In this document: piece after piece, positions 36,861 to 55,837 of the stretch
Layout: each line of letters opens with the position of its first letter
Position numbering within the stretch: position 1 is the first letter of the stretch
From: a virus
Virus record (IMG/VR): IMGVR_UViG_3300011112_000003
Span: 8,079 to 72,078 of that record
Length of the DNA stretch: 64,000 nt
Strand: one strand, 5' to 3'
The notes under the pieces: generated by a model
What the model saw: only the letters and a program-made list of their open reading frames with translations
Database searches by the model: none
Told to the model about the DNA's origin: nothing
Program-made: the position numbers and the translations under genes

Positions 36861-38746
36861 GTGCTCCTACTAGTAGCGGATAAGACTCAAGCGCCCCACA
36901 CCGGGCCCCCGTACAGCTTGTGCTCTCGCGTCGTCGCCCCGCAGTCCTGGCATGTGGTGATCTGCGCCACCCCTCCCGACACTTCCGGATCGAGTAGCGT
37001 CTTCCGCCAGCAAGCCATCCTCGGGTGCTCGCAGGGCCGTCCCGCACGCCGCCGGATGCGCATGTGCCTCGCGTACCCCCGGGCGTCCAGGCCCCGCGTG
37101 CTAGCGATCACTTCCGCCTCGCATACTCCCGCCAGCGCTGGCCCAGGCGCACGCCCGGCGTCCTACGCGGTGGGTGCAGCGGCGCTCGGACCTCAGGCGG
37201 GAAGCGGTAGGGATCGCGGGCGCACGACGTCAGGTCCAGGCGCAGCTGTTGGATGCCCACGCGCAGGTCTTCGCGGTCGATCAGGGTTTCTGCGTATGCG
37301 TGGTCGACGCCCGTGACGAGGATAAGCACATCCTTCCCCGTGAAGGTGCAGCGGTAGTTCGTGATCATCCCTCCGCCATTATCCGCGCAATCGCCTCTAT
37401 CTGCTTATCAGTCGCTTCCCGACACACGTCCGCCGCTACCCGAGTACGCAGCTCAGTGGGCGACTCGAACTCCAGTGTGACCTTCCACTCGCGCACCTGC
37501 ATGGCCAGCTGCGCAAGGCTGCGCGGTAGGATAAGCATACCGTCACCACACCAGTCCGATCCGCAGGGGGGCTCGAAGGCCGTGGGGCCGAACGCACCCT
37601 TCACGCGCACGCCCCGTCTACCGTCGCGTGGCATCAACTCGTATCCGTGGGAACGGGGAAAGAACTTCAGGTCTATCTTCATATCACCCGCCACATGATC
37701 AGCGCCATTAGGTAGCCCGCCAGCCAGCACAGCATGAACGCCAGCGCTATCACCTTCGAGCCGATGCGCTCGTGCAGATCCGCTATCTCTTTGTTGCGCA
37801 GCTCCACCGCGGCCTCAAGTGCCACGATCGCCTGGTCGGGGTCGCGAGTGATCCGCGAGTAGCCGAGGATGTCGGTGTTCGTGCGCAGTGCGAGTAGGCC
37901 ACGGTGGCTCGGGTCGCGGCACACCAGGATATCGGTCATTCCCCGTCCACCCAGTCGATGACAGCCGCTGCCAGACACAGGCACAGGAACATGATTCCGA
38001 GTACGAGTGCCGTGATCATTTCTGGGGTGATCATTCGCTCACCCAGCGCAGGCCACACCAGATGCGCTTGCACTCATCGCACTGCGCCGCAACGGGTACG
38101 CCATGACGCTGCTCCAGCGGGCTCGGCTCCATCTTCGCACCACACAGCGTAGGGCCGTTGCGGCCGCGGTGCCAGGCGTACACGGGCTTGTCTTTCATCG
38201 GATCGCCGTCGCCCAGCTTGTTCGATACCCAGTAGTCCATGTCCGCTTGGGCTTCCGCGAGCTTGTTGATATCGACCCACAGGGCGTTCGGGAACCCGTA
38301 GTGGCCGCTCGGGATAATGCGGCCGCCTGCGCGAGCGAGCATGAGCTTGGCCAGCTCGGATAGCCCCGCGTCGAGCTTCTTCTCGCTCATGCGTATCCCC
38401 TCCGCGCCAGCGTGATGCATGTCGCCGCGAGTAGCGCCAGTTGGATATACTCTTGGATCGTCATCGCTTGCCTACTCCTGCTGTAGCGGATAACCGTGCT
38501 CTGAATGAGCCGTAGATCCGGATCGCCCGTTCGAGCCCATCCCAAGGCGCCTGTGAGTCCCCCTGGCGATACGGCGGGATATCCAGCACCGCATGCGCCG
38601 CCATCCGCACGCGGTGCTCTGCGCCGGGGGTACGAAGCACGCGGTACGAGGCGTCCTGCAGGCCCTCCCCCCGCTGTCTGCCCAAGCACTTGCTGGCCCG
38701 GTCGTAAAGCCGCTGCCCCTCCAGTACTAACATCGCCTATCCCTTC

Positions 38747-38926
38747 TCATCGCCTACCCTCCACGACGTCCTTCGCCCACTGCCGCATATCGTCGAGCCA
38801 CCGCTGCGCCTCAGGCGACACGACGCGCACAACCGGCGCCGGGTCTCCGCGCATCACGCGCATGAGCTTCGCATAGTCTGTATTGGATAGGCCTGTAGTC
38901 CCCACGATGTGCAGGCGCCCTGCCAT
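38747..38926 (-). CDS. Leader-family protein (dispersed member)
   Basis: MAGRLHIVGTTGLSNTDYAKLMRVMRGDP. Confidence 0.65.
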   Translation of the reverse strand: MAGRLHIVGTTGLSNTDYAKLMRVMRGDPAPVVRVVSPEAQRWLDDMRQWAKDVVEGRR

Positions 38927-39889: not shown

Positions 39890-39895
39890 TCTTTG

Positions 39896-41326: not shown

Positions 41327-41841
41327 CCTATCTTCACCTTCAGCCCTAGTAAGGCGCTGTGATAATCAAACTCCGGGTCAGCCCGCTTCGCCGCACTGAC
41401 GTCGAGACATGCCTGGAAATGCGCATCATCCATGTGTCTCCAGTGCTTCGGCATGTCGACCATCGGGATTTTGTGAACGGACGCATAAAGCGCCATGGCC
41501 TCATCGGAGAGCCGGGTCTTCATCGACGCCGTCACTGAATAGAGGTCGACGGACCCGCCGTCACCGACGCGGGCGGACAACACGTACATCACGTCGTCTT
41601 CGTCCTCTTCCTTGCGGACGAATGCGTCTTGCTTCGAGAACGACACCCCCTTGCGGAGATCGCGGAACCCCACCGCAACCTCAGTGAGGTCTCCACATCT
41701 CACCATGCCGGCTAGCAGTTCGCCAATGTCCCACGGCCAGCAGCACGTCTTAGAGTCGGGCACCTCCGCGCTTTCGGTAGTCGAGTCGATCTTGTTCTTG
41801 CTTGGCTTGTTCACCGGGTCGGTCTTCGAGGGGTCGGTCAT
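41323..41841 (-). CDS. Hypothetical protein
   Basis: 172 aa. Confidence 0.6.
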   Translation of the reverse strand: MTDPSKTDPVNKPSKNKIDSTTESAEVPDSKTCCWPWDIGELLAGMVRCGDLTEVAVGFRDLRKGVSFSKQDAFVRKEEDEDDVMYVLSARVGDGGSVDLYSVTASMKTRLSDEAMALYASVHKIPMVDMPKHWRHMDDAHFQACLDVSAAKRADPEFDYHSALLGLKVKIG

Positions 41842-43576
41842 TTCGGTTCTTTCTCCAGATGCCCTTGTAGGCTCGGTGCAGCATCGAGAACGCGAGTGGG
41901 AACTGCATCATGATAAGCTTGCGCTCGTACAGGTAGAGCCGCGTCAGCTCGGCCGCGTTCTCGATCGGCGCGGTCTGCGCGTAGGGACTCACGAACCCTT
42001 CCCGCTTGCTGACCCCGAACAGTTTCTTGTGCCATTTGATAACCGGCGCTTCTCCACCCCAGCAGTACATGAGCCACACGTTCAGGGAGTGGCCCAACTC
42101 GTGTTCCAGCACATGCTTCAGGCGTGCCAACGGTAGTGTACCGGATACTCGGATTTCGTTGCCGGTCCAGTAGGCGAGGTCGTGGTCCTCCATGGCGTTG
42201 TCGACGCGCGGTTGGTCTTCGCAGATAAGCGTGACACCCACGCGCCTGTCGAATATCTCGGGAGGCGTTCGGTCTATCACCGCCTGGGCCACAGACAGCT
42301 TCTGCGGATCACCTATGCGGATGGCGCAACCACGCTCGGGCACGACGTTCCCCCAGGTCAGGTGCGCTTTGCGTAGGTCGCCCGGTAGCAGCTGCGAGCG
42401 CAACAGACTCTGCGGCATGAGATCGCCATCTTCGTTGAAGCCCCAGCCGTTCGGTACATGGATAAGTTCGCAAGAACACCAAGGGTGGATAGGGCCTATC
42501 GTCGCTTGCCACGCGCTTTGCTTCTTACCGACGTTCGTGCCGTTCGCCTGTAGCTCGGACAGCTTGAAGATACGCAGGGGCGAGCCTTCACCGGAGGTGT
42601 AGTGAAGGGCCACGCACCTCGGACAGGCGCCGGGCGATGGTTGCTTCGCCACATTGATTTCGTCTGGGTCGCCCTCGCGTTCGATGAGCCCTGCGGTGAG
42701 CCCCTGCTGCATGGCGCTCTGCTTCTCGGTTGCTGAGATACGCTTGAAGTCTCGCGCCCAGTCCTGCGTGCGGTGCCCGAGGTCGCTCGCCAGCTTCCGC
42801 CAACTCTCCTGGCGCTCGATGTTCATATCCAACTCGTCGCGCACATCCGCCTGATATTTCGCGCGCAGCACAGCATCCGCCTCGACCGCGATGGTACTGA
42901 AGTCGTCGCCCACTCGGTTGCCCAGGCCTACGATGGTGTTCGCCGCATTGCCCGATGCCCAGGTGCGCGCGGCCTGCTCTTGGGTAGATAGGGTTGGGTC
43001 GCCGTACTTGGTGCGCCAGGGGTCCACGCCCAAGGTTGCCGCCTGTCCGCGCAGTTGCGGATCGCGTCCCATGGATATCCCGTAGTTGTACGCATCCGCG
43101 ATGGCCTGCGCGCTCGGTGGGGCAGTCTCGCCGGGCTCGGCCTGGTAGCTGGCCTTCATGTCCTGTGGGAGCACGCCGCTGTCGATGAGCCGCTGGATAT
43201 CCGCAGCGTCCACGTACTCCCCGCCCACCTGCGTCGCGATGAACGCTAGGTGGTAGTCGTTCACGATCCTGCGTATCTCCCGCAGGTGCTCCGGGTTGGC
43301 GATGGGGTCGTAGGGGCCCTCCGCCTTCTTCAGGCTATCATGGACTATCTTGGACTCCGCGTAATCGCGGATAACGCTGAGCATCTTATCTAGTTGCTTG
43401 CGGTATGCGCGCTCGAACTGCTCCGCGGACTGCTGCATTGCCTTGTAGTGCTGGAAAGTCCGCTCGGAGTACTTCACGCGCTCGGCTTTCAAGAGATACT
43501 CCGGGCCCATCACGTACTGCGCGAGTTCTAGGCGGTCCATGTCTGCTGGGGCGTCTATTGAGATATGTTTGGTCAT
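41750..43576 (-). CDS. MuF / SPP1 gp7-like head morphogenesis protein with C-terminal zincin metallopeptidase domain
   Basis: 'RDFKRISATE', 'ACPRC', 'GPIHPWCSC' (MuF); 'LEHELGH' (HExxH) plus 'FVSPYAQTAPIENAAE'. Confidence 0.85.
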   Translation of the reverse strand: MTKHISIDAPADMDRLELAQYVMGPEYLLKAERVKYSERTFQHYKAMQQSAEQFERAYRKQLDKMLSVIRDYAESKIVHDSLKKAEGPYDPIANPEHLREIRRIVNDYHLAFIATQVGGEYVDAADIQRLIDSGVLPQDMKASYQAEPGETAPPSAQAIADAYNYGISMGRDPQLRGQAATLGVDPWRTKYGDPTLSTQEQAARTWASGNAANTIVGLGNRVGDDFSTIAVEADAVLRAKYQADVRDELDMNIERQESWRKLASDLGHRTQDWARDFKRISATEKQSAMQQGLTAGLIEREGDPDEINVAKQPSPGACPRCVALHYTSGEGSPLRIFKLSELQANGTNVGKKQSAWQATIGPIHPWCSCELIHVPNGWGFNEDGDLMPQSLLRSQLLPGDLRKAHLTWGNVVPERGCAIRIGDPQKLSVAQAVIDRTPPEIFDRRVGVTLICEDQPRVDNAMEDHDLAYWTGNEIRVSGTLPLARLKHVLEHELGHSLNVWLMYCWGGEAPVIKWHKKLFGVSKREGFVSPYAQTAPIENAAELTRLYLYERKLIMMQFPLAFSMLHRAYKGIWRKNRNDRPLEDRPGEQAKQEQDRLDYRKRGGARL

Positions 43577-43773
43577 GGCAGCATGCTTCCCATCCCGCAA
43601 CCGAAGTTCCGCAGCTTGGCCTCGGCTCTCGTGATGCCCTCGCGGTCAGCCCGCTCCTGGTGGATGTCCCGCCCCGGGCTCTTGGTTGGGAGGTAGATCC
43701 GAGGCAGTCCTCGCGCTCCCCTGTTCCTCCGCATGCGGATGGCAAAGGCTTCGTTGGATAGGTTCTTAGTCAT
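43573..43773 (-). CDS. Leader-array protein 1
   Basis: MTKNLSNEAFAIRMRRNRGA; stop overlaps the MuF ATG. Confidence 0.75.
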   Translation of the reverse strand: MTKNLSNEAFAIRMRRNRGARGLPRIYLPTKSPGRDIHQERADREGITRAEAKLRNFGCGMGSMLP

Positions 43774-44099
43774 GAGTCCGATACCAATGATAGGGGGATG
43801 TTGATTGTCTTCGAGAAGATAACGAGGTCGCTCAGGCGCATGCTGACTTCGACGACTCCCGGTGATGTCTCGACCACCTCCGCAGACACCACCCCAGGCA
43901 TGGCCTCGACGCTCTTCTTGATGCCTCCCACAGTGGGCTTCCGCCATGGCCCTGCGCCCAGCATCAAGGCCTCCCACTGCTCAATGAACTCCGCGTACTG
44001 CTCCCCCTTTGTCATGACCGGTACACGGATCAGTCGCGGCTCTCCACGTTGCTCCCGCATACGATCTGCGTAGTCGTCGTTGGATAGGTTGTTCGTCAT
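43770..44099 (-). CDS. Leader-array protein 2 (baseplate-J/POTRA-like body)
   Basis: MTNNLSNDDYADRMREQRGE; body IKKSVEAMPGVVSAEVVETSPGVVEV. Confidence 0.75.
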   Translation of the reverse strand: MTNNLSNDDYADRMREQRGEPRLIRVPVMTKGEQYAEFIEQWEALMLGAGPWRKPTVGGIKKSVEAMPGVVSAEVVETSPGVVEVSMRLSDLVIFSKTINIPLSLVSDS

Positions 44100-44103
44100 T
44101 ATC

Positions 44104-44400
44104 TTAGGCCGTGTCCATACGTATCGTGAAGGACTGAATACTAGGCGCAGGGTCTCGGAGCCGCAGCTCGACGATGACCTCCCCTGGCACCCCACGAGTC
44201 ACCTTCGCACTCTCCACTCTGGGCATGCGTGCGGCAGCTTCTTTGATGTCGCTCAATGTCGGCGCCGGGGGGCGGAACAGCCCCGGCGAGAAGGCGCGGA
44301 TGTCTAGTAGGGGTGTGGACGACACCGGGAGCTTCGGTGGCTCCCCCCGTTGACGCCGGGCATGCTCGGCGAACTCCCTGTTGGATAGATCGTTGGTCAT
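44104..44400 (-). CDS. Leader-array protein 3 (baseplate-J/POTRA-like body)
   Basis: MTNDLSNREFAEHARRQRGE; body IKEAAARMPRVESAKVTRGVPGEVIVEL. Confidence 0.75.
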   Translation of the reverse strand: MTNDLSNREFAEHARRQRGEPPKLPVSSTPLLDIRAFSPGLFRPPAPTLSDIKEAAARMPRVESAKVTRGVPGEVIVELRLRDPAPSIQSFTIRMDTA

Positions 44401-44777
44401 GTCTTGTACTCCCGGATCACAGACTGCTTCGCGCCAAAATCCCATCCCAGGTAGTAGGTTGACCGTCGGTCGTAGTCGCGGGCCTCCGGGTTGGTCTTCA
44501 GGGGCTTCATGGGCATGCATACGGGTCGGTGGGTGTCCATCCAGCGCAAGGCTTGGATGTCTACCTGGCCTCGACTGAACCACGCCGCTCCTGGCTCTCT
44601 CCATGCCCGCTGTAATGCGGCTATCTCAGCATAGGCATCGGACAGGAGCATCACACGGCGGCCCCCTTGCTCGTCGTCGTACTCCAGTACGCAGTTGTCC
44701 GGCAGTGGGTAGAGTCTGAGTCCTGCGATCAGGATGTTGGTGCGGCCCTCCATCGGGGCTCTGGGATGTCTGGTCAT
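44397..44777 (-). CDS. Hypothetical protein inside the array, lacking the leader
   Basis: ATGA-coupled on both sides. Confidence 0.6.
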   Translation of the reverse strand: MTRHPRAPMEGRTNILIAGLRLYPLPDNCVLEYDDEQGGRRVMLLSDAYAEIAALQRAWREPGAAWFSRGQVDIQALRWMDTHRPVCMPMKPLKTNPEARDYDRRSTYYLGWDFGAKQSVIREYKT

Positions 44778-45148
44778 ATCTGCCTTCCAAGGTTCTGCCA
44801 GCCATCGGGCTCATGGTACTTGAGGAATGTGACGCGCCATAGGTCGGGGCCCGCCTCGCCCACGTGTAGCTTCACGTGGCTCACCAGTTCGCTCAGGTGG
44901 ACTACGCAATGGGACTTGTTCGAGATAGGCGAGCCGCGCTCGTCGGTGGGGCGCAATAGGATGCAGTCCTTAGGCAGTCCGATATCCTTTGCGAACTGCG
45001 GTAGCTCCGTGTGCTTGGGGGTCCAGGCGAGTACCCACATGGTGCGTCCGCGGATGGGTGGCGGGGCCTGCCCTCGCTTACACCGTTGGCGGCTGGCGAA
45101 GTCTTCGTTGGATAGACCTCGGGTCATGCGGTCCTCGATGTGCTTCAC
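44774..45148 (-). CDS. Leader-array protein 4
   Basis: (MKHIEDR)MTRGLSNEDFASRQRCKRGQ; GPDLWRVTF. Confidence 0.75.
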   Translation of the reverse strand: MKHIEDRMTRGLSNEDFASRQRCKRGQAPPPIRGRTMWVLAWTPKHTELPQFAKDIGLPKDCILLRPTDERGSPISNKSHCVVHLSELVSHVKLHVGEAGPDLWRVTFLKYHEPDGWQNLGRQI

Positions 45149-45606
45149 GTAGCGTACCCATCACAGGGCGTGACATGGCTCAGCCCCGCCAGCCCACATG
45201 CTGCATGGACTACCGACTGTAGGACTATGTTTTCCCTGCGCTCGCTGGCGTAGGGCTGGCGGTTGAGTTGGATAAGGCGGCCTTCAGGGCTCACCATGTT
45301 GACCGTGTACTGGTCGTCGTCATTGCCGGAACCGGGCCCGCTGAGCAACCCCGCGTTCAATGCCTTGACGTTCAGGAACGGACCGAAGCCATCGGAGATA
45401 AAGGCATGCTCCTTTTTCTCTGCATCCCACAGCGCCCACCTACCCGTGGCGATAGCGATGCTGTAGGTAAGCCTGTTTAGGTCGAGGGTCACTAGCCCGC
45501 CGGCTAGGCACTGTGTCATGACGACGGGTGGCCAGAACAATTGAGGCTCCCCTCGCCTCTCACGCATACGACTGGCAAAGTCTTCGTCGGATAAGTCTTG
45601 AGTCAT
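45145..45606 (-). CDS. Leader-array protein 5
   Basis: MTQDLSDEDFASRMRERRGE. Confidence 0.75.
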   Translation of the reverse strand: MTQDLSDEDFASRMRERRGEPQLFWPPVVMTQCLAGGLVTLDLNRLTYSIAIATGRWALWDAEKKEHAFISDGFGPFLNVKALNAGLLSGPGSGNDDDQYTVNMVSPEGRLIQLNRQPYASERRENIVLQSVVHAACGLAGLSHVTPCDGYAT

Positions 45607-45977
45607 AGCCGCTTGATGTCCAAGGTGGAGTGGTCGCCGGGGGGCACGATGGCATTCCTGCATTTCAGCTGAATCCGCGTAGGTACGTCGAACACCCAAG
45701 TCCCCCACAACCGCACAACTGCCGCCGGGCCACGCGCGGGGTGTGCGCTCGCAATAAAAATCCCTGTCGTGGCGTTGCTGAGATGCAGCGATGGAACAGC
45801 GCCTTCGTCACCCCAGCCCAGCATGGCCATGGCCGTGATCCTGTAGCTGCCGGGCGAATGGATGTCCGCACTCAGCAGCGTCTGCCACATCGGTGATTGC
45901 TGCTGCTGCTTCGGCAGTTCCCCCCGCTGCGCTCTCATGCGCTCGGCGTACGCTTCGTTGGATAGGCTTTGAGTCAT
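45603..45977 (-). CDS. Leader-array protein 6 (beta-sandwich body)
   Basis: MTQSLSNEAYAERMRAQRGE. Confidence 0.75.
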   Translation of the reverse strand: MTQSLSNEAYAERMRAQRGELPKQQQQSPMWQTLLSADIHSPGSYRITAMAMLGWGDEGAVPSLHLSNATTGIFIASAHPARGPAAVVRLWGTWVFDVPTRIQLKCRNAIVPPGDHSTLDIKRL

Positions 45978-46306
45978 TTCGATGGCTCGCAGCCAGGCCT
46001 GAACGTGACTTGCCAAATGTCCGGCCCGTCATCGCTCACTTCCACTTCATCCGCGTGGCTCCAGTGGCTCTCATGGACTGCCCGGAACCGGGCATCCGGT
46101 AGGGCAGCTCCCCTAGCGTCGCATTCGAGCATCACGACGAAACCATTCTCAAAGCCGGGGCTCGGACGGAATTCCTCGGGCAGATCCTTGTGATGCCTGC
46201 GCCACACCTGCATGCGGACTGGGCCCCGGCCCAATCGCTTGGGCGGCTCTCCCCTGTTGCTCCGCATGCGCGCCGCATAGCTGCTGTTGGATAATGCACG
46301 GGTCAT
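45974..46306 (-). CDS. Leader-array protein 7
   Basis: MTRALSNSSYAARMRSNRGE; GPDIWQVTF. Confidence 0.75.
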   Translation of the reverse strand: MTRALSNSSYAARMRSNRGEPPKRLGRGPVRMQVWRRHHKDLPEEFRPSPGFENGFVVMLECDARGAALPDARFRAVHESHWSHADEVEVSDDGPDIWQVTFRPGCEPSK

Positions 46307-46767
46307 CGGCGCGGCCGCTGCGTGATCTGCGCGTCTCCCACCGCCATCGCTTCGGCAAGATCTGTTACCCCCTGCTTTACTGTGATGGTGGCGATCAACA
46401 CCGCGGACATCAAATCGGGGTGCTCGACGTATGGCTCTGTATCAAAGGCAACTGCTGCTTCAGAGAGAGAGTCGTACACCACGAGCCCGTACACTGCGGT
46501 TGTGATGCCCTCCTTCCGCCAGTGGTACACCCGCTGGTTGTGGAACTTGCCTTCCGGAACGGGTACGGGCTCGGGCGCCCACGGGGGTTGGTAACGCTCA
46601 GGATCTATATCCTCACCCCGCTCGCCCCGAAAGGTCAGGTCACCGTCCGCGTTGACAAATGCGCAAGTCAACCCGGGCAACTCAGGCAGTCCCAGCGCCA
46701 GTGGCGATTCCCCACGCTTCCCACGCATGAGATTGGCGAATGCTGCGTTAGATAGGCCCTGGGTCAT
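46303..46767 (-). CDS. Leader-array protein 8 (body similar to a domain of the 1033-aa virion protein)
   Basis: MTQGLSNAAFANLMRGKRGE. Confidence 0.75.
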   Translation of the reverse strand: MTQGLSNAAFANLMRGKRGESPLALGLPELPGLTCAFVNADGDLTFRGERGEDIDPERYQPPWAPEPVPVPEGKFHNQRVYHWRKEGITTAVYGLVVYDSLSEAAVAFDTEPYVEHPDLMSAVLIATITVKQGVTDLAEAMAVGDAQITQRPRR

Positions 46768-47123
46768 ACCATCCACTTCCCCATGCTCGTAGTCCAGCCC
46801 GGCGGGGTGAGTCCGGGCAGGAAGGATATCTCGCAGATGTCGGGCTGCTCTGGCAGCAGGCTCCGGGCCTTGAACTTGAACCGCGCCTCATCCAAATCGG
46901 TCCAGGGCACCACAAATCGTTGGATGCTTCGGATCCACGCCCCGTTATCCCACACCATCGTGACCATCATCTCGTCTTCGCCTATCTCGCCCCATGGGCA
47001 GCCCACCGGCAGTACGTGCGTGCTGCAGTGCATGGTCGCTTGGAACCACCAGCGTCTGATAGGTTCTTCGCGTTTGCTCCGCATGTGGTTGGCGAACGCA
47101 TTGGGGGATAGGTCTTGGGTCAC
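46764..47123 (-). CDS. Leader-array protein 9
   Basis: GTG start, MTQDLSPNAFANHMRSKREE; QPDICEISF. Confidence 0.72.
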   Translation of the reverse strand: MTQDLSPNAFANHMRSKREEPIRRWWFQATMHCSTHVLPVGCPWGEIGEDEMMVTMVWDNGAWIRSIQRFVVPWTDLDEARFKFKARSLLPEQPDICEISFLPGLTPPGWTTSMGKWMV

Positions 47124-47497
47124 AGGCGCCCGTACTCTTCCACGAGCAGTCGCGGTGATCCGCCGCGCACCAACCCCCCAGTCACCCGCATGTATATCTT
47201 GCGGTCCATGGCCCATGCGTATCGATCGCTGAGCGCCATGGTGTGCCATTCATCGGCGGGCACCGTCATGCGTATCTCCTGAAGCAGACCCGACATATCA
47301 TACAAGCTGAGGATGACTTCGCCCGGGCCCCGCACAATGACACTGACCGTCACACAGTAGGTGTTCCCATCGCCCGGTACGATGGCCTCACCCAGGTTGT
47401 TGATATTGAACTTTGGGGCGGGCAAGCGCATCAGGGGCTCCCCACGGCGCGCCCGCATGTGATTCGCATAGCGCAGGTTGGATAGGCTTTGGGTCAC
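47120..47497 (-). CDS. Leader-array protein 10 (paralog of 11)
   Basis: GTG start, MTQSLSNLRYANHMRARRGE. Confidence 0.75.
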   Translation of the reverse strand: MTQSLSNLRYANHMRARRGEPLMRLPAPKFNINNLGEAIVPGDGNTYCVTVSVIVRGPGEVILSLYDMSGLLQEIRMTVPADEWHTMALSDRYAWAMDRKIYMRVTGGLVRGGSPRLLVEEYGRL

Positions 47498-47892
47498 GCG
47501 ATGGGCTCCACGAGTATGCGCCACGATCCTTCGCGCACCGTACCCCCGGTCACGCGCAGGTAGATCTTGCGGTCCGAGCTGCAGGTGTAGTGATGGCGGA
47601 GCCCCACGACGCGCCACGAGTCGCTGTCCAGATCCTCGCGCCAATCCTCCAGCATGCCCGCCCTGTCGTACAGCCCTACGATGACGGCGCTGGGGCCCTT
47701 CACCCAGAGGGAGCCCTTCACGTGGACATGCGCCATCACGCTGTATGTCCTCATGTCCCCCGTGATCGTGGCCTCTGCTACGTTATTGATATTGAACGGC
47801 TGTTGGATAGGAGCGGGCTCCGGTGGCTGCCCGCGGAGTAGGCGCATGTGCTCGGCGTACGCCCCGTCGGATAAGGTCGTTGTGTCTACCAT
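47494..47892 (-). CDS. Leader-array protein 11 (paralog of 10)
   Basis: MVDTTTLSDGAYAEHMRLLRGQ. Confidence 0.75.
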   Translation of the reverse strand: MVDTTTLSDGAYAEHMRLLRGQPPEPAPIQQPFNINNVAEATITGDMRTYSVMAHVHVKGSLWVKGPSAVIVGLYDRAGMLEDWREDLDSDSWRVVGLRHHYTCSSDRKIYLRVTGGTVREGSWRILVEPIA

Positions 47893-48284
47893 TCGCTGCA
47901 CGCTATGACTGTAGGGTTGGGGCCGGGCGTGTTCAGGAACGCGGTCCACATGTTGGTGACTCCCTTGTCCTCATCATCGTGATATTTGATGGTCAGTGCT
48001 TCGATGCGCCCGATCGAACTCGTCTCGCATTGCGACTCACGGCCCCAGTCCAGCTCCTCGGCGCTTTTCCAGGCCAGATCCGTCACAGCCGCCATGTCGG
48101 TGGTGTCGCCGCCTATCCACCACCGCACGTCCTCAATCTCCACCACGAACAATGTGTAGCCCTGCCTGTGGTGCCGCTCGCGCATCGGGTCGCTATGGAT
48201 AAGGCCTGCCTGCACTTGCCGCCTGCGTATCCTGAAGCGCACCGCGAGCGCATCGTTGGTGAGGTGGCGCGTGTCGTAGGGCAT
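47886..48284 (-). CDS. Leader-array protein 12 (divergent leader)
   Basis: MPYDTRHLTNDALAVRFRIRRRQ. Confidence 0.65.
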   Translation of the reverse strand: MPYDTRHLTNDALAVRFRIRRRQVQAGLIHSDPMRERHHRQGYTLFVVEIEDVRWWIGGDTTDMAAVTDLAWKSAEELDWGRESQCETSSIGRIEALTIKYHDDEDKGVTNMWTAFLNTPGPNPTVIACSEW

Positions 48285-48286
48285 TA

Positions 48287-48859
48287 CTACGCCAAACTCA
48301 GGGTGTGCCGGTGGAACGCGACGTCCATGGGGGCGAGGTACCAGAAGGTCAACGACACCACGGCCGTGTCTCGACTCTTCTGGTCGATATCCCCGACCTG
48401 GACTTCACGTATCTCACGGATGGCGGGTATGTCGCACAGCGCTACCAGCATGTCCCGCTCGGTAGGCTTACGTTCGGATATCACGTCCACCGAGCCCGAC
48501 CACTGGCGCCAAGTGCGCATGTCCGGCCGTAGCACGAACGGCACGCGCGAGAAGTCTACGTCGATTCCGTGAATGTCCGGCCAATAGCTGATCATGGTTC
48601 GCTGTTGGCCCGATGTGCTGGTGACCGTGCGGACCTTCAAGACCATGCTCGGGTTCCCAGGCAGGCCCGTGCCTAGGAGGGCCACAACCGAGCGTAGGAT
48701 ATCGTCTGGGTCTGCATTGGTGTCGAGGAAGCGATCGGCATGCACAAGCGCAACGCACCCCGCCCATACACGCGCGCCATGAGGGATGGGATCCAGCGGG
48801 TGCTTGCGAGTCGCACGCATGTGGCGCGCGAAGTCCTGATTGGATAGCGCGAGGGTCAC
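48287..48859 (-). CDS. Leader-array protein 13
   Basis: GTG start, MTLALSNQDFARHMRATRKH. Confidence 0.72.
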   Translation of the reverse strand: MTLALSNQDFARHMRATRKHPLDPIPHGARVWAGCVALVHADRFLDTNADPDDILRSVVALLGTGLPGNPSMVLKVRTVTSTSGQQRTMISYWPDIHGIDVDFSRVPFVLRPDMRTWRQWSGSVDVISERKPTERDMLVALCDIPAIREIREVQVGDIDQKSRDTAVVSLTFWYLAPMDVAFHRHTLSLA

Positions 48860-49110
48860 CCCCACCTCGCGCCAGATGCGCGCGCCCGCTCGCGCTCGCT
48901 CAGCTGGGATATGCCTGGCTTTGAGCGGCATCGCTTGCACACGGGGTTCATGTTCTTCGCGCGGTACTTGCGGCCGCACTCGTCACAGCGTGGCCAGTTG
49001 GCTCGCTTGTCTGGTCCCTTGACCTGTTTCTCGCGCACGCACCTCTTCACGCGCATGCGCTGAGCAAAGTCTTCGTCGGATAGGCCGCGCGTTGCTGAGT
49101 CGTTGTTCAC
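48856..49110 (-). CDS. Leader-array protein 14 (Zn-ribbon body)
   Basis: GTG start, MNNDSATRGLSDEDFAQRMRVKR; CDEC..CKRC. Confidence 0.7.
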   Translation of the reverse strand: MNNDSATRGLSDEDFAQRMRVKRCVREKQVKGPDKRANWPRCDECGRKYRAKNMNPVCKRCRSKPGISQLSERERARASGARWG

Positions 49111-49826: not shown

Positions 49827-50245
49827 CACGCGGTCCCTCCTACCTGCCAGGCCGTCCACACCCACGCGCTACCATCCCAGATGCCTTCGCAACGTGAACC
49901 GCTGACGGTCTGGAATGTCCCTGTGATCTTCGAGGGGCCGTTCACCACTATTTTCTGTCCCCCGTCTTTTGCCCACTCCTTCCGCGCCTGTTCGTACTGC
50001 CTAAGTTCACCCGCGAACTCTTCGGCAGACATGGTGCGTACGTACACATCAGTATCTGCTATCTCGTCCCACTCGTAGACCTCACGGCAGGGACGACAAG
50101 GGGGCCCATACCAGACCACAGAGGTGTCAACCTCTTCGCTGACCTCGGCACGTATGAACGGTTCCCCCAGCCAGGGATCGGGGAAGGCTACCCCCAGCTC
50201 ACCCAACATCGCTTTGGCGCCCGCAAGATTGCTCAGATGTCCCAT
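49826..50245 (-). CDS. Hypothetical protein with a degenerate leader, flanked by 14-bp direct repeats
   Basis: MGHLSNLAGAKAMLGELG; TCAGATGTCCCATC at 49814 and 50233. Confidence 0.6.
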   Translation of the reverse strand: MGHLSNLAGAKAMLGELGVAFPDPWLGEPFIRAEVSEEVDTSVVWYGPPCRPCREVYEWDEIADTDVYVRTMSAEEFAGELRQYEQARKEWAKDGGQKIVVNGPSKITGTFQTVSGSRCEGIWDGSAWVWTAWQVGGTA

Positions 50246-50979
50246 CGCACACTCCCCTCGCACCCCTGCGTGTTGCACGCGATGCTGATATCTTCGTTGC
50301 CTGCCCACATGAGCCAGGCGCCCACACCCGTGACGATTGCGCCCAGCGGCAACAGCACGTCGGTCGCGATACCTAGTGTATCAACGGTGCTGCCTAAATC
50401 ACGGCCCTCGCGCAGGTCTCCCGCGGCACACTGGCGGTCGGCCCCGCATAGCGTGTCGAGGTCACTGTCAGCCCCCACGGCCAGGACGCCGGTAATGCTG
50501 CCCGCCAGAATGAGCGCTCCGCCGCCCACGAGCAGGCTGACGGGCAGAACGTCGCTGCGGACGGGCGCTGGCACGGGCGCGACCGCCTGAGGGGCCTGCG
50601 GGGGCTCCTGGGGCGGTTCTGGCTCGGGTGGCTCCTCGAACTTCGTGAATGGGCCCTCATCCGCAGGTTTCCGCAAGCGCACGATGCGGCCCCGCACTTC
50701 GTCGCCCCGTGGTGTGTCAGCCTCCCACCGCAGGAACCGCTCGTAGGCCGCGACCGCTTCCGCGTCATGGCTCAGTGCCTCGTGCGCCAGACCGATGTTG
50801 TAGTGCAGCTTGGGATGCCCCGATTCCCGCAAGGACTGCTGCCAATGAGTCATGGCCACCGTGTAGTCACCCGCATCGTAGGCAGTTCGGCCCGCCTCGA
50901 ATGCAGTGCGGCCGCGCTCGCTCATCTGTGCGGAAACTGGAATCGCTATCAGGCAAATAGCTAATGAAATCCTCATCAT
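50233..50979 (-). CDS. Secreted/membrane TPR protein of myxobacterial type
   Basis: Signal MMRISLAICLIAIPVSA; TPR 'FEAGRTAYDAGDY..A...W...LHYNIGLAHE'; Pro linker; two C-terminal hydrophobic helices; GGAGG RBS. Confidence 0.8.
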   Translation of the reverse strand: MMRISLAICLIAIPVSAQMSERGRTAFEAGRTAYDAGDYTVAMTHWQQSLRESGHPKLHYNIGLAHEALSHDAEAVAAYERFLRWEADTPRGDEVRGRIVRLRKPADEGPFTKFEEPPEPEPPQEPPQAPQAVAPVPAPVRSDVLPVSLLVGGGALILAGSITGVLAVGADSDLDTLCGADRQCAAGDLREGRDLGSTVDTLGIATDVLLPLGAIVTGVGAWLMWAGNEDISIACNTQGCEGSVRWDI

Positions 50980-51002
50980 AGCTCGGTCCTCCCCCAAGTC
51001 CT

Positions 51003-51050
51003 GTACGTACGGTACCGCAACCGCGTACGTACTGCAAGCGCATTTGGATA
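51003..51050 (-). promoter_or_regulatory. Paired GTACGTAC operator boxes with TATCCAAA upstream
   Basis: Boxes at 51003 and 51025 (22-bp spacing). Confidence 0.7.
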
Positions 51051-51250
51051 AAGCTAATTGAATCTGTATTTCGCTCGGTACATGTGGGCTTCCCCGGGGA
51101 CCTCTCCAAGGTCGTAGCCCGTCGCCTCCGGGCGGAGCCTGCGCCATTGCCCGATCGTGGAACTCCCGAGACGCCTTATCGAGGTCGAAGGGCGTGGGCA
51201 CCTCGCAGCGCAGGCGGCGCATACGCTTGGCGAACTGCACGTTGTTCTCA

Positions 51251-51613
51251 CTACGCATCCCCAGACCCTCGGCGGAACAAGGCCTTCACCTGAATCTCCG
51301 CGCTCCACAGGCCGGACGCAACCCATGGGCGGATGCGCACGATGTGGTGCTCTTTGAGCTTCGGGTTACCGCCCGGTTGCCTGGTCACCAGAATGCGCGG
51401 CGCAAGTAGATGCTCGCGGGGCAGGTAGTGCATCTGATCGTCCGGCACGCGGTTGCCCAGCAGCGAGCACGGGATCACATCGAACCCATCCTGCAGTTGG
51501 GTCGACCGCATGACCATGTGCAGTTCGATCCATGCGAGCAGTGCAGACTTGTCACCCCGCTTGGCCCGCATGTGCGCCGCGAACTCTTCGGCGCCTAGCT
51601 CAGTCGTCGTCAC
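51251..51613 (-). CDS. Leader-family protein
   Basis: GTG start, MTTTELGAEEFAAHMRAKRGD. Confidence 0.65.
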   Translation of the reverse strand: MTTTELGAEEFAAHMRAKRGDKSALLAWIELHMVMRSTQLQDGFDVIPCSLLGNRVPDDQMHYLPREHLLAPRILVTRQPGGNPKLKEHHIVRIRPWVASGLWSAEIQVKALFRRGSGDA

Positions 51614-54109: not shown

Positions 54110-55837
54110 TCAGCTCCCTACGTCGATTTCGATGTGTCGACGGCCCTCTGCGACCGACTCGCGCCGCTCGGATTTTCGTAGTTCCTCTGCGACGATATTG
54201 GAGACCGTCAGGGATGCCGCAAGTGCCTCAGCCTGCGAATCCGCAAACCCCCCATCGCCCCCATCACCATCCTGGTCGGCGGGCTCGTCGTCACCGCCAT
54301 CGCCGGGCTCGTCGTCGCCAAACAGATCGTCGTTATCCTCCGACCCATCGCTTTCGCCCGCGCCCAAGTCCTCACCATTGCCGTCGGTGCCCTCCTGGGC
54401 CGACTTGTTCGCCTGCCACACAGTGTTCAGGATAACCTGACCCAGCCCGTCGGGTAGCGGCTCCAAGTCCTGCTCCGCGCGGATCTCATCGACGTACTTC
54501 CAGTTCTCCACCTCAGTCTTGCGGCGCTCACGCTCTTTGCCTTCCGCCTTCGCGTCGAGGCCCGTGAACTGGAACTCTAGCTCGGGCGCTAGCTCCCAGA
54601 TGAGGTGGCGATTGATATTGTCGGAGACGTGATCAGCAAGCGGCGCGAGCCCCTTGTCCTTCGACTCGACCACCTCCGCTTCGTTCGGTCGGGACTGGCT
54701 GAGGCTCGACGTCTGTCCGCTGTTGCCAAAGATGAAGTTGATCTCCGTCGGGTCAACGCCGTAGATCGCACAGATCAGCTTCGTGAGCCAATCCATCCAC
54801 TGGCCGTACTCCATCTCCCGATTGTTGGTGTGCATGTTGATCCACTGCACCTCCTCGGAGTTTAGGATAGGAGTTTTCCACGCGTTCTGGACGCCCGTGA
54901 TCATCGAATACCACATGCGCCGGAACGCACGGAGCTGCCGGTCGGGTAGGGAACCCTTGATATTTAGGATCCCCTTGATGGCGCTACCCTGCGTGAAAAA
55001 TCTTGTATTATATTCAAAACCGTACAGCCACGCGGTCACCAAGCGCACGATCTGTTCAGTCGGAGCGAAGCCAAAACCATTCGTGCGCAGGTCCGAACGC
55101 GGGTTCATGACGCACCATGCAAGGTCGTCGACCCCGAACTCGGCGATGACTGAGTTGTCGTAGACCTGCAGGTGGGACACCCGGCTGCGCAGCTCGGACG
55201 TCGTCATGTGCTCGGTGTCCGCGACCGCGGGGCGGATGGTCTCTGCGGGCAAGCAGATAAAGCGCGAGGGGCGCTGCGCCCGGTCGCGGATCTTCTCGAA
55301 GCACCATTGGTCGTATGTGAGGATATCGCGCGTCGACTTCTTTATGAACATGCGGAAGCTGTCACGATCGGATGGCCGCTCATCGGGCTGCAGGAACGCA
55401 GTCGTTTCGAGCATGGCTTCCAGCTGGGCCGCTTGCCTTTGCTCAGACGAGGTCATCTTGACCATGTTGTCGCGGCGGTCCCGCTTGATGATCCTGTAAC
55501 CCTTATCGTAGACACCCTGCTGCGGGCGCGCGAAGGCCGCGAGCTGATTGGTGCGCAACTGGATGATCGCTGCGATCACCGTGTTCTGCACCGCCATCTG
55601 CCGCAGCGATTCGTAGGTCAAACTGCTCGGTCGCTGGCGCCAACCCCCCCAATCCATCACTGAGTACGGATCGTGAAAAAGAGCCCTTGGCTTCTCGTCT
55701 GTGGGTTGCGCCAACGTACCAAAACCCGTCGACGCGAGCGCCTTCTGCATCTCGTCGAAGGGCACATCCTCCTGGCTAGTGTCCTGCCAACTGACCAGTT
55801 CACGAGCAGTGCCTGCGATGTCACCGATAAGTCCCAT
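54110..55837 (-). CDS. Portal protein
   Basis: 'AAIIQLRTNQ', 'TRDILTYDQ', 'NPRSDLRTNGFGFAP', 'NTRFFTQGS', 'REMEYGQW', 'YGVDPTEINF', 'SKDKGLAPL' match the Twort/SPO1-type portal. Confidence 0.93.
   Translation of the reverse strand: MGLIGDIAGTARELVSWQDTSQEDVPFDEMQKALASTGFGTLAQPTDEKPRALFHDPYSVMDWGGWRQRPSSLTYESLRQMAVQNTVIAAIIQLRTNQLAAFARPQQGVYDKGYRIIKRDRRDNMVKMTSSEQRQAAQLEAMLETTAFLQPDERPSDRDSFRMFIKKSTRDILTYDQWCFEKIRDRAQRPSRFICLPAETIRPAVADTEHMTTSELRSRVSHLQVYDNSVIAEFGVDDLAWCVMNPRSDLRTNGFGFAPTEQIVRLVTAWLYGFEYNTRFFTQGSAIKGILNIKGSLPDRQLRAFRRMWYSMITGVQNAWKTPILNSEEVQWINMHTNNREMEYGQWMDWLTKLICAIYGVDPTEINFIFGNSGQTSSLSQSRPNEAEVVESKDKGLAPLADHVSDNINRHLIWELAPELEFQFTGLDAKAEGKERERRKTEVENWKYVDEIRAEQDLEPLPDGLGQVILNTVWQANKSAQEGTDGNGEDLGAGESDGSEDNDDLFGDDEPGDGGDDEPADQDGDGGDGGFADSQAEALAASLTVSNIVAEELRKSERRESVAEGRRHIEIDVGS

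What the first reader, a model, noticed from the sequence alone, without database searches (positions are those of the whole stretch)
43573..49110. Array of small genes sharing a ~20-aa N-terminal leader fused to unrelated bodies (candidate undescribed cassette system)
Seen in sequence: 14 of 15 consecutive ORFs, mostly coupled by ATGA/GTGA overlaps, begin with MTxxLS[ND]xx[FY]AxxMRxxRG[EQ], usually followed by a Pro-rich linker. Examples are MTKNLSNEAFAIRMRRNRGA, MTNNLSNDDYADRMREQRGE, MTQDLSDEDFASRMRERRGE, MTQSLSNEAYAERMRAQRGE, MTRALSNSSYAARMRSNRGE and MTQGLSNAAFANLMRGKRGE. The 45-170 aa that follow are mostly non-homologous. The ORF track hides this because it picks upstream starts. The array lies between portal and MuF, and its last stop overlaps the MuF start. 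Variable positions and many codons differ between copies, which points to protein-level selection for a basic amphipathic helix. Inference: a shared docking/targeting tag carrying a library of exchangeable payloads. It could target them to the capsid (by analogy with the T4 internal-protein CTS), or bind nucleic acid or a host hub; the leader DNA could also serve as a recombination handle for gene capture. I do not recognise the leader as a known family.
Basis: partly seen in the sequence, partly recalled or inferred. Interest (0 to 1): 0.95.

Follow-up and report, generated by a model that had tools for sequence, protein, structure and literature searches.

The report
Shared N-terminal helix tag on phage genes
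An uncultured phage starts about twenty otherwise unrelated small proteins with the same 20-residue helix, most likely a common docking tag (perhaps for loading them into the virus head), and this tag matches no described family.

Summary
Fourteen of 15 consecutive minus-strand genes (43573-49110) begin with [M/V]TxxLS[ND]xx[FY]Axx-MRxxRG[EQ]. Five more copies lie elsewhere in the window, plus a degenerate one beside the large terminase. Twelve of 16 junctions are ATGA/GTGA overlaps, and the last runs into a MuF-like minor head protein gene.

The tag is under protein-level selection: Ala11, Arg15 and Arg18 use 4-5 codons each. AlphaFold2 models it as a short helix joined by a low-confidence linker to different bodies.

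A profile of the tag found 22 foreign, unnamed proteins among 1.84 billion. It matched nothing in Pfam, PHROGs, NCBIfam or 50,697 GenBank phages.

A related phage has only one of the 15 array genes at this site. A contig from a second sample lacks exactly one cassette, with the joint inside a 14-nt stretch identical in two leaders.

Leu5-Ser6 is almost always YTA-TCC, a DNA-level constraint that remains unexplained.

Function is untested. My best reading is a T4 CTS-like shared docking tag for head cargo (confidence 0.4). This scan has noted similar arrays with other leader sequences in other phages, so I rate it a new variant of a known kind.

The parts
43573..43773 (-). A1, 66 aa, leader MTKNLSNEAFAIRMRRNRGA; its stop overlaps the MuF-like start (ATGA)
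43770..44099 (-). A2, 109 aa, leader plus alpha/beta body; ortholog P0011 sits directly before MuF in the related phage (L003 3142-3471)
44104..44400 (-). A3, 98 aa, leader; body weakly related to A2
   Evidence: E 2.7e-6
44397..44777 (-). A4, 126 aa, the one array gene without the leader
44774..45127 (-). A5, 117 aa, leader plus beta-rich body (family A5/A8/A10 and foreign P0002, P0010, P0014, P0016, P0032)
45145..45606 (-). A6, 153 aa, leader plus unrelated body
45603..45977 (-). A7, 124 aa, leader plus unrelated body
45974..46306 (-). A8, 110 aa, leader; body related to A5
   Evidence: E 3.9e-9
46303..46767 (-). A9, 154 aa, leader plus unrelated body
46764..47123 (-). A10, 119 aa, GTG start, leader; C-terminus weakly like A5/A8
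47120..47497 (-). A11, 125 aa, GTG start, leader; paralog of A12
   Evidence: E 1.6e-28
47494..47892 (-). A12, 132 aa, leader preceded by MVD
47886..48284 (-). A13, 132 aa, degenerate leader (HLTNDALAVRFRIRRRQ)
48287..48859 (-). A14, 190 aa, leader; foreign homolog P0034
48856..49110 (-). A15, 84 aa, leader after a 5-residue extension; Cys-rich zinc-ribbon-like body
51251..51613 (-). B3, 120 aa, leader variant (TTELGAEEFAAHMRAKRGD)
50233..51258 (-). B2, leader variant (NNVQFAKRMRRLRCE) open in frame into a signal-peptide TPR protein
38747..38905 (-). C1, 52 aa, leader copy outside the array (CTATCC kept)
36887..37111 (-). C2, 74 aa, leader variant, just upstream of the helicase gene
22446..22865 (-). 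C3, 139 aa, leader copy among the DNA-metabolism genes; foreign homolog P0015
61755..62162 (-). Degenerate 20th leader (DTRSWDNTSYAAYMKARRAG) on the gene just upstream of the large terminase; ortholog in L004 537-866
41750..43576 (-). MuF-like minor head protein with C-terminal HELGH (zincin-like) region, translationally coupled to A1
54110..55837 (-). Portal protein (SPO1-like)
9684..10436 (-). Candidate prohead protease (weak Peptidase_S78 match); its tail contains AGEP
8612..9664 (-). Scaffold-like protein (my reading from position and composition) with two [GA]GEP sites conserved in the related phage
7133..8545 (-). Major head protein
   Evidence: phrog_752 E 8e-90

Best explanation
The leader is a portable protein module. 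It consists of an N-capped, Gly-terminated, basic amphipathic alpha-helix of about 12 residues (Ser6 to Arg18, conserved face Phe/Tyr10-Ala11-Met14-Arg15-Arg18), followed by a Pro-rich flexible linker. It is placed in front of many unrelated small domains so that they all dock onto one common partner. The partner I think most likely is the assembling head, either the scaffold or the capsid interior. On that reading the proteins would be loaded as internal cargo, as T4 loads its internal proteins through the capsid targeting sequence, and delivered with the DNA alongside the MuF-zincin protein that ends the same coupled gene chain. The tag may be clipped at or near the conserved G-E-P. Shown: the shared tag, its protein-level constraint, its modelled independence from the bodies, its restriction to a small clade of uncultured phages, and cassette turnover between relatives. 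Inferred: docking, the identity of the partner, packaging and cleavage.
For: (1) There are 19 clear copies and 1 degenerate copy in one 72-kb record. The DNA pattern gives 12 matches against 0.02 expected. (2) Protein-level constraint: Ala11 19 of 19 with 4 codons, Arg15 19 of 19 with 5 codons, Arg18 19 of 19 with 5 codons; third-position identity 0.49 against 0.68 and 0.65. In 22 foreign copies Ala11, Arg15 and Arg18 are 22 of 22, and Leu5, Phe10, Met14 and Gly19 are 21 of 22. (3) AlphaFold2: in the A5-family model the leader helix spans residues 7-16 (pLDDT 56-62 in the first two 10-residue blocks), then coil 17-25, then a beta-rich body with block pLDDT 81-91. In the A2-family model the helix spans 7-18, residues 25-28 have pLDDT below 50, then an alpha/beta body follows. 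So the tag is not part of either fold. (4) Context: the array is a chain of coupled genes ending in ATGA with a MuF-like minor head protein that carries HELGH. No sigma-70-like promoter and no excess of terminators was found across 36500-56000. MuF fusions are regarded as effectors delivered by phages (passages read in PMC5512222). [quoted passage not shown] T4 capsid targeting sequences are 10-20-residue N-terminal propeptides (passages read in PMC5694885). The present tag is 20 residues. (6) Weak and post hoc: of the 8 GEP tripeptides outside leaders in my proxy gene set, 3 lie in the protease tail and the scaffold-like protein, which together make about 3% of residues. All 3 are kept in the related phage. 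The leader most often ends in R-G-E-P. (7) Array content is hypervariable between relatives; that the T-even internal-protein loci are likewise polymorphic is recalled, not read here.
Against: There are no virion proteomics, no expression data and no cultured relative. Glu20 is only moderately conserved (10 of 19 own copies, 12 of 22 foreign copies). Gly19 and Pro21-Pro22 are better kept than Glu20, which fits a helix cap plus linker as well as a cleavage site. Pro directly after a cut site is unfavourable for many proteases (recalled, not tested). The candidate protease is S78-like, not T4 gp21-like (PF03420: no match). Leader genes also sit among replication genes (C1, C2, C3) and beside the terminase gene, not only in the head operon. 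A purely protein-level tag does not explain the fixed YTA-TCC codons. The protease, scaffold and MCP genes lie about 33 kb away from the array.
Confidence: 0.4

Rival explanations
1. The leader is a docking motif for a hub that is not the capsid. The hub could be a host protein (for example the transcription, replication or proteolysis machinery), a phage non-structural protein, or nucleic acid. On this reading the array is a set of host-takeover or anti-defence proteins that all need access to that hub.
For: The architecture is that of a short linear motif on a flexible linker. The conserved face carries two invariant Arg residues plus Phe and Met. Copies occur beside the helicase gene, among DNA-metabolism genes and beside the terminase gene. 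Several bodies are Cys-rich zinc-ribbon-like: A15, C2, P0022, P0026 and L004 1144-2079 with CxxCxGxG motifs. The A2-family body gave a weak Foldseek hit to the SPO1 anti-CBASS protein Acb4 (E 0.045, TM 0.33-0.40, 50 columns).
Against: No partner is identified and the host is unknown. The main array sits in a gene chain coupled to a head protein gene. The Acb4 hit is below any threshold, and VIA-align 2 ranks other folds above it.
Confidence: 0.25
2. The leader is primarily a DNA-level cassette boundary. Its invariant core (AAC-CTATCC-AAC) would serve as a crossover or regulatory site that lets cassettes be gained, lost and swapped in frame. Amino-acid conservation would then be a side effect of needing any working N-terminus.
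For: Leu5 is CTA or TTA in 15 of 18 Leu copies, although CTA plus TTA make up 13.5% of Leu codons in long ORFs. Ser6 is TCC in 13 of 14. CTATCC is also kept in 2 of 2 Leu-Ser leaders of the related phage. A contig of run X2 joins 43750 to 44077, skipping 326 nt. That equals the A2-start to A1-start distance, and 14 nt fit both sides, namely the core shared by the A1 and A2 leaders. The related phage lacks A15-A3 and A1 and carries leader genes at other sites. A similar motif, YTATCCGMTA, lies 13-17 nt upstream of the ATG at 8 of 10 intergenic sites (23 and 31 nt at the other two) and is strand-specific.
Against: Leaders are only 56% identical on average over 60 nt, 75% at most. Synonymous sites elsewhere in the leader are randomised while the residues are kept. 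That is the signature of protein-level selection. No tyrosine recombinase was found in the record, which is 68% complete. The joint rests on one contig at depth 3.3, laid at 80% likeness. Other foreign leaders use CTA-AGT or CTT-TCG. The long intergenic form YTATCCGMTANAG, tested only in that form, is absent from the relative, which still keeps the leader.
Confidence: 0.15
3. All these genes are one old paralogous family whose bodies have diverged beyond recognition. The N-terminus stays conserved simply because it is part of the fold.
For: Subfamilies exist: A2~A3, A5~A8~A10 and A11~A12. Tandem duplication is the simplest origin for an array.
Against: The two modelled families have different folds, all-beta against alpha/beta, and in both the leader is a detached helix behind a low-confidence linker. 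Bodies range from about 30 to about 290 residues. Foreign members carry further unrelated bodies.
Confidence: 0.08
4. The leader is a recognition handle for a modifying or processing enzyme, as in RiPP-like leader logic or as a substrate tag for the MuF zincin domain. It would not be a localisation signal.
For: The pattern of one conserved leader with many variable bodies, clustered and dispersed, resembles precursor families served by one enzyme. Two HExxH proteins lie in the same gene chain: MuF-like 41750-43576 and 51983-52591. Zincin-like peptidases are proposed to process phage polyvalent proteins (abstract of PMC5512222).
Against: The bodies are folded domains, not short cores. No RiPP-type enzyme family was detected among the proteins scanned. 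No linkage statistics were possible because contigs of the foreign members could not be fetched.
Confidence: 0.07

Closest known systems
Capsid targeting sequence (CTS) of phage T4 internal proteins IPI, IPII, IPIII and Alt
   Same: A short (10-20 residue) N-terminal peptide is shared by otherwise diverse small phage proteins (passages read in PMC3012670 and PMC5694885). That the T-even internal-protein genes are polymorphic between related phages is recalled, not read here. In this window the tag is 20 residues, the array differs between relatives, and it lies in a head-gene chain.
   Different: There is no sequence similarity. The head genes here are SPO1-like and the candidate protease is S78-like, not gp21-like. 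There are about 20 tagged genes per genome, also outside the head module. Packaging and cleavage are untested. A nucleotide-level core (YTATCC) is superimposed on the tag.
MuF-based polymorphic toxins and phage polyvalent proteins (Jamet 2017, PMC5576092, search listing and abstract start only; Iyer 2017, PMC5512222, abstract and passages read)
   Same: A conserved N-terminal delivery part is combined with variable effector parts, encoded next to portal and terminase genes. The neighbouring gene here is a MuF-like protein with a zincin-like HELGH region.
   Different: The array proteins have no MuF domain. Each is a separate small gene with its own start, not a domain of one giant polypeptide.
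Arrays of phage genes with other shared N-terminal leaders noted earlier in this scan (for example MKDALGHGS-type and T4-like marine phage leaders)
   Same: The same overall pattern: 6-17 small unrelated proteins per phage sharing one N-terminal peptide, read as head-cargo tags (AI notes, not checked by me).
   Different: The leader sequence and the phage lineage are different. Those notes do not mention a codon-level DNA core or an in-register cassette deletion.
Integron gene cassettes and the promoter/stem-loop cassettes of T4-type hyperplastic regions (both recalled, not read here)
   Same: An array of exchangeable single-gene units, each bounded by a short conserved DNA element.
   Different: The conserved element here is coding and lies at the 5' end. 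No integrase was found and no conserved RNA or DNA hairpin. Identity between copies is low.

Membership tests
T4-type CTS / internal head proteins | Short N-terminal peptide shared by diverse small proteins of one phage | tested here: met
   19 copies plus 1 degenerate copy. No sequence likeness to the T4 CTS was tested or claimed.
T4-type CTS / internal head proteins | Removal of the peptide by the prohead protease at a motif shared with scaffold and protease substrates | tested here: inconclusive
   R-G-E-P ends many leaders. [AG]GEP occurs twice in the scaffold-like protein and once in the protease tail, and all three are conserved in the relative. Glu20 is present in only 10 of 19 own and 12 of 22 foreign copies. 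Cleavage itself cannot be tested here.
T4-type CTS / internal head proteins | T4 gp21-type (Peptidase_S77) protease | tested here: not met
   PF03420 has no match in the record. There is a weak PF04586 (S78) match at window 9891-10043 (E 3.5e-4, 16.3 bits, below cut-off). The record is 68% complete.
T4-type CTS / internal head proteins | Proteins present inside the mature head and ejected | not testable with these tools
   Needs virion proteomics.
Phage_Mu_F (PF04233) for the neighbouring gene 41750-43576 | Match to the family profile over its curated cut-off | tested here: not met
   11.9 bits against a 29.6-bit cut-off, E 0.015, but over the whole model (positions 2-112) at window 42461-42847. 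No hit by hmmscan.
Phage_Mu_F (PF04233) for the neighbouring gene 41750-43576 | Homology to minor head (SPP1 gp7 / Mu F-like) proteins of related phages, and the Cys/His motif | tested here: inconclusive
   Residues 92-387 are about 30% identical (E about 1e-30) to proteins of SPO1-like Bacillus phages, of which 1 of the 12 rows shown is annotated 'minor capsid protein'. The sequence has CPRC...HPWCSC. That this motif typifies MuF is recalled.
MuF polymorphic toxin / polyvalent protein (for the array proteins) | MuF or other known trafficking domain on the same polypeptide | tested here: not met
   No Pfam family at E 0.1 or below other than one weak POTRA_1 hit and one weak DUF4170 hit, in 20 proteins scanned.
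RiPP precursor family | Short unstructured core peptide after the leader, and a cognate maturase | tested here: not met
   Bodies are 30-290 residues. Two families are modelled as folded domains. No maturase family was seen among the proteins scanned.
Integron-like cassette array | Tyrosine recombinase and structured attC-like sites | tested here: not met
   PF00589 has no match in the 68%-complete record. The consensus fold of leader regions is -0.44 kcal/mol with 0 covarying pairs.

The most novel reading that the evidence does not exclude
The leader is dual-coded. At the protein level it is a universal docking helix. At the DNA level its invariant core (AAC-CTATCC-AAC, codons 4-7) is a crossover point at which whole ATGA-bounded cassettes are deleted, inserted and exchanged in frame between co-infecting relatives. 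This would give the phage clade an integrase-free 'effector integron', in which any captured domain is immediately expressed (by translational coupling) and addressed (by the tag).
Probability: 0.18. Interest if true: 0.85.

Novelty: new variant of a known kind. Interest (0 to 1): 0.62.

Why it matters
If the tag is an address label, it marks at a glance the whole accessory arsenal of a clade of uncultured phages. That arsenal is about 20 proteins per genome, none with a known family, and probably includes anti-defence or host-takeover factors. It would also offer a portable 20-residue handle for loading foreign proteins into a non-T4 capsid. The codon-level core and the in-register cassette deletion make a long-standing question directly testable in metagenomes: how do phages shuffle accessory genes without breaking their expression?

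Tried and rejected
Family searches gave nothing usable.
- Pfam on 20 window proteins and on 10 foreign members. The only oddity was DUF6471 at E 0.042 over the leader region of P0019, far below its cut-off.
- PHROGs on 38 proteins as an alignment: 9 single-member marginal hits, including two 'baseplate protein' families.
- PHROGs again on 20 proteins one by one. No array protein of this window hits a baseplate family, so those hits came from foreign members.
- NCBIfam: nothing for the array proteins.

Fold searches found no convincing match.
- The A5-family model: Foldseek against PDB and BFVD with no hit at E 1e-3 or below; VIA-align 2 wide search with best Z 3.7.
- The A2-family model: Foldseek against PDB with best hit SPO1 Acb4 at E 0.045; VIA second look with best hits T4 gp25 at Z 6.8 (rmsd 5.7, 93 aligned) and Z 6.2 (rmsd 3.1, 77 aligned). 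By the tool's own note these Z values are middling.
- The ESM Atlas gave no usable lead for A14 or for the 61755-62159 protein.
- PDB sequence search with the MuF-like protein: nothing below E 0.1.

The complex prediction of MCP, scaffold-like protein and leader alignment returned 'no answer' (score 0.00). It counts neither for nor against binding.

No RNA holder was listed among the sequencing runs, so nothing can be said on expression.

The consensus RNA fold of 13 leader regions shows no structure and no covariation.

The sigma-70 promoter and terminator scan of 36500-56000 found 0 promoters and 10 terminator-like sites against 9.3 expected.

Searches for more loci mostly failed.
- A strict leader DNA pattern in IMG/VR gave 2 hits, both chance matches in other frames.
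- A protein-level degenerate pattern gave 0 hits in IMG/VR and 2 chance hits in the metagenome collection.
- MuF, P0018 and P0027 found no relative in IMG/VR.
- Word-indexed protein searches with leader alignments added only P0002, P0024 and own proteins.
- A7 by tblastn against 50,697 GenBank phage records: no match at E 10 or below.

The idea that the leader's YTATCC is a copy of this phage's intergenic YTATCCGMTA motif is left open. The related phage keeps the leader core, but its whole MAG has 0 matches to the long form YTATCCGMTANAG, the only form I searched there, and the one orthologous site I read lacks the motif.

A claim that the motif is not in print rests only on four full-text searches. 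These were keyword searches and could not search by sequence.

Full report
WHAT IS THERE. The window is bases 8079-72078 of a single 72,078-bp IMG/VR virus record. The record is linear and CheckV rates it 68% complete. It is about 62% G+C and almost entirely coded on the minus strand. Read along that strand, it holds the following genes in order:
- the large terminase, 59970-61721 (phrog_38, E 3e-58);
- an SPO1-like portal, 54110-55837 (phrog_12, E 6e-49; about 35% identity to Bacillus and Lysinibacillus myophage portals);
- the array;
- a MuF-like gene, 41750-43576;
- a helicase, 34971-36860;
- thymidylate synthase, 30051-30917;
- a weak Peptidase_S78 candidate, 9684-10436;
- a scaffold-like protein, 8612-9664;
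- the major head protein, 7133-8545 (phrog_752, E 8e-90).

Between 43573 and 49110 lie 15 consecutive genes. Fourteen begin with [M/V]-T-x-x-L-S-[ND]-x-x-[FY]-A-x-x-M-R-x-x-R-G-[EQ]. The exception is 44397-44777. In 12 of the 14 the start codon is exactly nine codons before the Phe/Tyr. Twelve of the 16 junctions from the lipoprotein gene down to the MuF-like gene are ATGA or GTGA overlaps, including the last, A1 stop on MuF start at 43576-43573. A mechanical longest-ORF listing hides the pattern by choosing upstream starts.

Five more copies lie at 51251-51613, 50233-51258, 38747-38905, 36887-37111 and 22446-22865. A profile search of the whole record returns exactly these 19 and nothing else of weight. 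A degenerate 20th copy (DTRSWDNTSYAAYMKARRAG) heads the gene just upstream of the terminase gene, and the related phage has a clearer ortholog of it. The DNA pattern YTATCCRAYNNNNNNTWYGC occurs 12 times, all on the minus strand, against 0.02 expected from shuffles.

PROTEIN-LEVEL AND DNA-LEVEL CONSTRAINT. Leader DNA (60 nt) is on average 56% identical between copies and at most 75%. Identity by codon position is 0.68, 0.65 and 0.49. The invariant residues Ala11, Arg15 and Arg18 are written with 4, 5 and 5 different codons. These are therefore old copies held by selection on the peptide.

One spot departs from this. Leu5 is CTA or TTA in 15 of 18 Leu copies, and Ser6 is TCC in 13 of 14. In the long ORFs of this genome CTA plus TTA make 13.5% of Leu codons and TCC 18% of Ser codons. 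The same CTATCC is kept in both Leu-Ser leaders of the related phage. Two other foreign copies write CTA-AGT and CTT-TCG.

A longer motif, YTATCCGMTA, sits 13-17 nt before the ATG at 8 of 10 intergenic sites of this phage and 23 and 31 nt before it at the other two. However, its long form YTATCCGMTANAG is absent from the relative's whole MAG. It is also missing at the one orthologous intergenic site I read. I therefore cannot tie the two motifs together. No conserved RNA structure spans the leader: consensus energy is -0.44 kcal/mol and no pair covaries. The fixed YTA-TCC remains unexplained.

SHAPE. The conservation pattern reads as a capped helix. Leu5 and Phe10 could form a hydrophobic staple and Ser6 an N-cap. 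Phe10, Ala11, Met14, Arg15 and Arg18 fall on one face. Gly19 would be a C-cap, followed by Pro-Pro. This is my reading from standard helix-capping rules, not a computed result.

AlphaFold2 agrees in outline. In the A5 family (8 sequences) the leader is a helix at residues 7-16, with pLDDT 56-62 in the first two 10-residue blocks. Coil follows at 17-25, then a beta-rich body with block pLDDT 81-91. In the A2 family (4 sequences) the helix is at 7-18, residues 25-28 have pLDDT under 50, and an alpha/beta body follows. The two bodies have different folds and neither packs against the leader.

BLASTP of the bodies links only A2~A3, A5~A8 (weakly A10) and A11~A12. No body could be assigned to a known fold or family.

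WHERE ELSE. A 33-position profile of the 19 copies was run against 1.84 billion representative proteins and gave 34 hits at E 1e-3 or below. Eleven are this phage's own proteins, one (P0031) is a low-complexity artefact, and 22 are foreign proteins.
- In 21 of the 22 the Phe/Tyr of the motif lies within the first 24 residues. The exception is P0029, where it is at residue 105.
- Ala11, Arg15 and Arg18 are kept in 22 of 22. Leu5, Phe10, Met14 and Gly19 are kept in 21 of 22. Glu20 is kept in only 12 of 22, and Pro21 and Pro22 in 15 of 22 each.
- The foreign bodies are again diverse, from 68 to 284 aa.
- The 20 looked up come from Logan, ENA, JGI and NCBI assemblies and carry no name beyond 'hypothetical protein'.
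- Two sit in MAGs labelled Gammaproteobacteria and Opitutaceae. That disagreement suggests mis-binned phage contigs.
A7 finds nothing in 50,697 GenBank phage records even at E 10. The tag is thus real, specific and confined to a small group of uncultured phages.

TURNOVER. Two contigs of genome G001 (L003, L004) belong to a relative. Its longest tblastx matches to the MuF-like and terminase genes are about 80% identical at protein level, and its scaffold-like protein is 70% identical. In this relative the homolog of gene 49826-50308 is followed directly by the A2 ortholog and then by the MuF-like gene. The 5.7 kb holding the lipoprotein gene and A15 to A3 is absent, and so is A1. Two other leader genes lie just upstream.

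Near its terminase gene the relative has a 311-aa leader protein with CxxCxGxG zinc-finger motifs, inserted at a gene boundary where this window has nothing. The A2 ortholog pair gives dN/dS of about 0.5. Leader changes are confined to the variable positions, apart from one Tyr10-to-Phe10 exchange within the F/Y class.

A contig from a second sample (run X2, a different study) joins 43750 to 44077 and skips 326 nt. That is exactly the distance between the A2 and A1 start codons. Fourteen letters fit either side of the joint, and they are the AACCTATCCAACGA stretch common to both leaders. This is one contig at depth 3.3, laid at 80% likeness, so it is a hint, not a proof. Logan contigs are built from 31-letter words (my recollection of the method), so a 14-nt identity should not cause a false join. 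X2 also holds near-identical pieces of A12 to A14, with 6 and 0 differences over 357 and 342 nt.

HOW IT MOST LIKELY WORKS. The established facts are these:
- one short autonomous helix on a flexible linker;
- conserved as protein;
- in front of many unrelated small domains;
- in genes that turn over fast.
This is the anatomy of a shared docking peptide. For the partner I favour the assembling head, for four reasons.
- The array is a translationally coupled chain ending in a minor head protein gene. That protein carries an HELGH region, and MuF fusions are regarded as phage-delivered effectors (PMC5512222 passages).
- T4 does exactly this with its internal proteins, which share only the capsid targeting sequence (PMC3012670 passage). 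That sequence is a 10-20-residue N-terminal propeptide later removed by the prohead protease (PMC5694885 passages).
- The tag here is 20 residues.
- Its commonest ending, R-G-E-P, recurs as [AG]GEP twice in the scaffold-like protein and once in the protease tail, which are the classic protease substrates. That makes 3 of the 8 non-leader GEP tripeptides in about 3% of the residues of my proxy gene set, and all three are conserved in the relative.
The last point is post hoc. It is weakened by the modest conservation of Glu20 and by the Pro that follows it.

Against the head reading, leader genes also lie among replication genes and beside the terminase gene, and nothing here shows packaging. 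I put 0.4 on head loading. I put about 0.75 on the broader claim that the tag is a protein-level docking or targeting peptide of some kind.

RIVALS.
- A non-capsid hub, host or phage (0.25), fits the dispersed copies and the zinc-ribbon bodies.
- A primarily DNA-level cassette handle (0.15) fits the YTATCC core and the joint. It conflicts with the randomised synonymous sites and the low identity between copies.
- One diverged paralog family (0.08) conflicts with the two different folds and the detached leader.
- An enzyme-recognition leader (0.07) conflicts with the folded bodies.
The bold combination, a tag that is both a docking helix and an in-frame crossover core, is not excluded. I give it 0.18.

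COMPARISON AND NOVELTY. The leader belongs to no Pfam, PHROG or NCBIfam family and has no match in GenBank phages. As a kind of system it resembles the T4 CTS with its internal-protein loci. This scan has noted arrays with other leader sequences in at least seven other phage genomes (AI notes that I did not check). I therefore rate it a new variant of a known kind, with three distinguishing features:
- a non-T4 (SPO1-like head, S78-like protease) background;
- about 20 tagged genes, also outside the head module;
- a nucleotide-level core with a candidate in-register cassette deletion.

LIMITS.
- The record is incomplete, and the host is unknown.
- The single metagenome scan found only chance matches.
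- The complex prediction gave no answer.
- No RNA data were available.

Noticed in passing
window, minus strand, motif starts at 63176, 53309, 51979, 38493, 36883, 34622, 31188, 30937, 19022, 17434, 13859 (and genome position before the window): A strand-specific intergenic motif, YTATCCG[AC]TA (often ...GATATAG). At 8 of the 10 sites followed by an ATG it lies 13-17 nt upstream, including the sites before the helicase and thymidylate synthase genes; at the other two it lies 23 and 31 nt upstream. It is a candidate phage promoter or initiation element. The long form is absent from the related phage's MAG.
   Followed up: partly
window 41750-43576 (-) and L003 3467-6371: The MuF-like protein carries a C-terminal HELGH region with a weak match to a zinc metallohydrolase family (E 0.0043). 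Its ortholog in the related phage is about 1034 aa, with an insertion of about 1.07 kb (L003 4574-5643) between the conserved halves.
   Followed up: partly
window 8612-9664 (-) and 9684-10436 (-); L008: The scaffold-like protein has GGGEP and GAGEP, and the protease tail has AGEP. All three are conserved in the related phage. They are possibly prohead-protease sites that resemble the leader's R-G-E-P ending.
   Followed up: partly
window 50233-51258 (-): A leader-type N-terminus is open in frame, with no stop, into a TPR protein that has its own Met-Met start and signal-peptide-like segment about 95 codons in. TTATCC...GTACGTAC lies just upstream of that internal start. This looks like a cassette whose end was overwritten by an inserted TPR gene.
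   Followed up: no
window 49814-49837 and 50233-50256: Direct repeat sharing TCAGATGTCCCATC, 419 nt apart, bracketing gene 49826-50308. That gene's ortholog in the related phage sits directly before the A2 ortholog.
   Followed up: partly
window 49107-49826 (-) and 51983-52591 (-): A Cys-rich lipoprotein with (GD)n repeats sits inside the array region. A membrane-anchored protein with HEMLH lies upstream. Both are unusual cargo for a head-gene chain.
   Followed up: no
window 49826-50308 (-); L003 2939: This gene contains an internal leader-like fragment. The relative has TLSDEEFDAELAQY with TTATCCGAT; here it reads TMSAEEFAGELRQY.
   Followed up: no
window 43770-44099 (-) model ma85e8700664f: The A2-family body aligns to T4 gp25 (Z 6.8 and 6.2) and weakly to the SPO1 anti-CBASS protein Acb4 (Foldseek E 0.045). 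Both are below convincing levels.
   Followed up: partly
L004 1144-2079 (-): A 311-aa leader protein of the related phage has two CxxCxGxG motifs (DnaJ-type zinc-finger pattern, recalled). It is inserted at a gene boundary that is empty in this window (about 62435-62447).
   Followed up: no
   Followed up: yes
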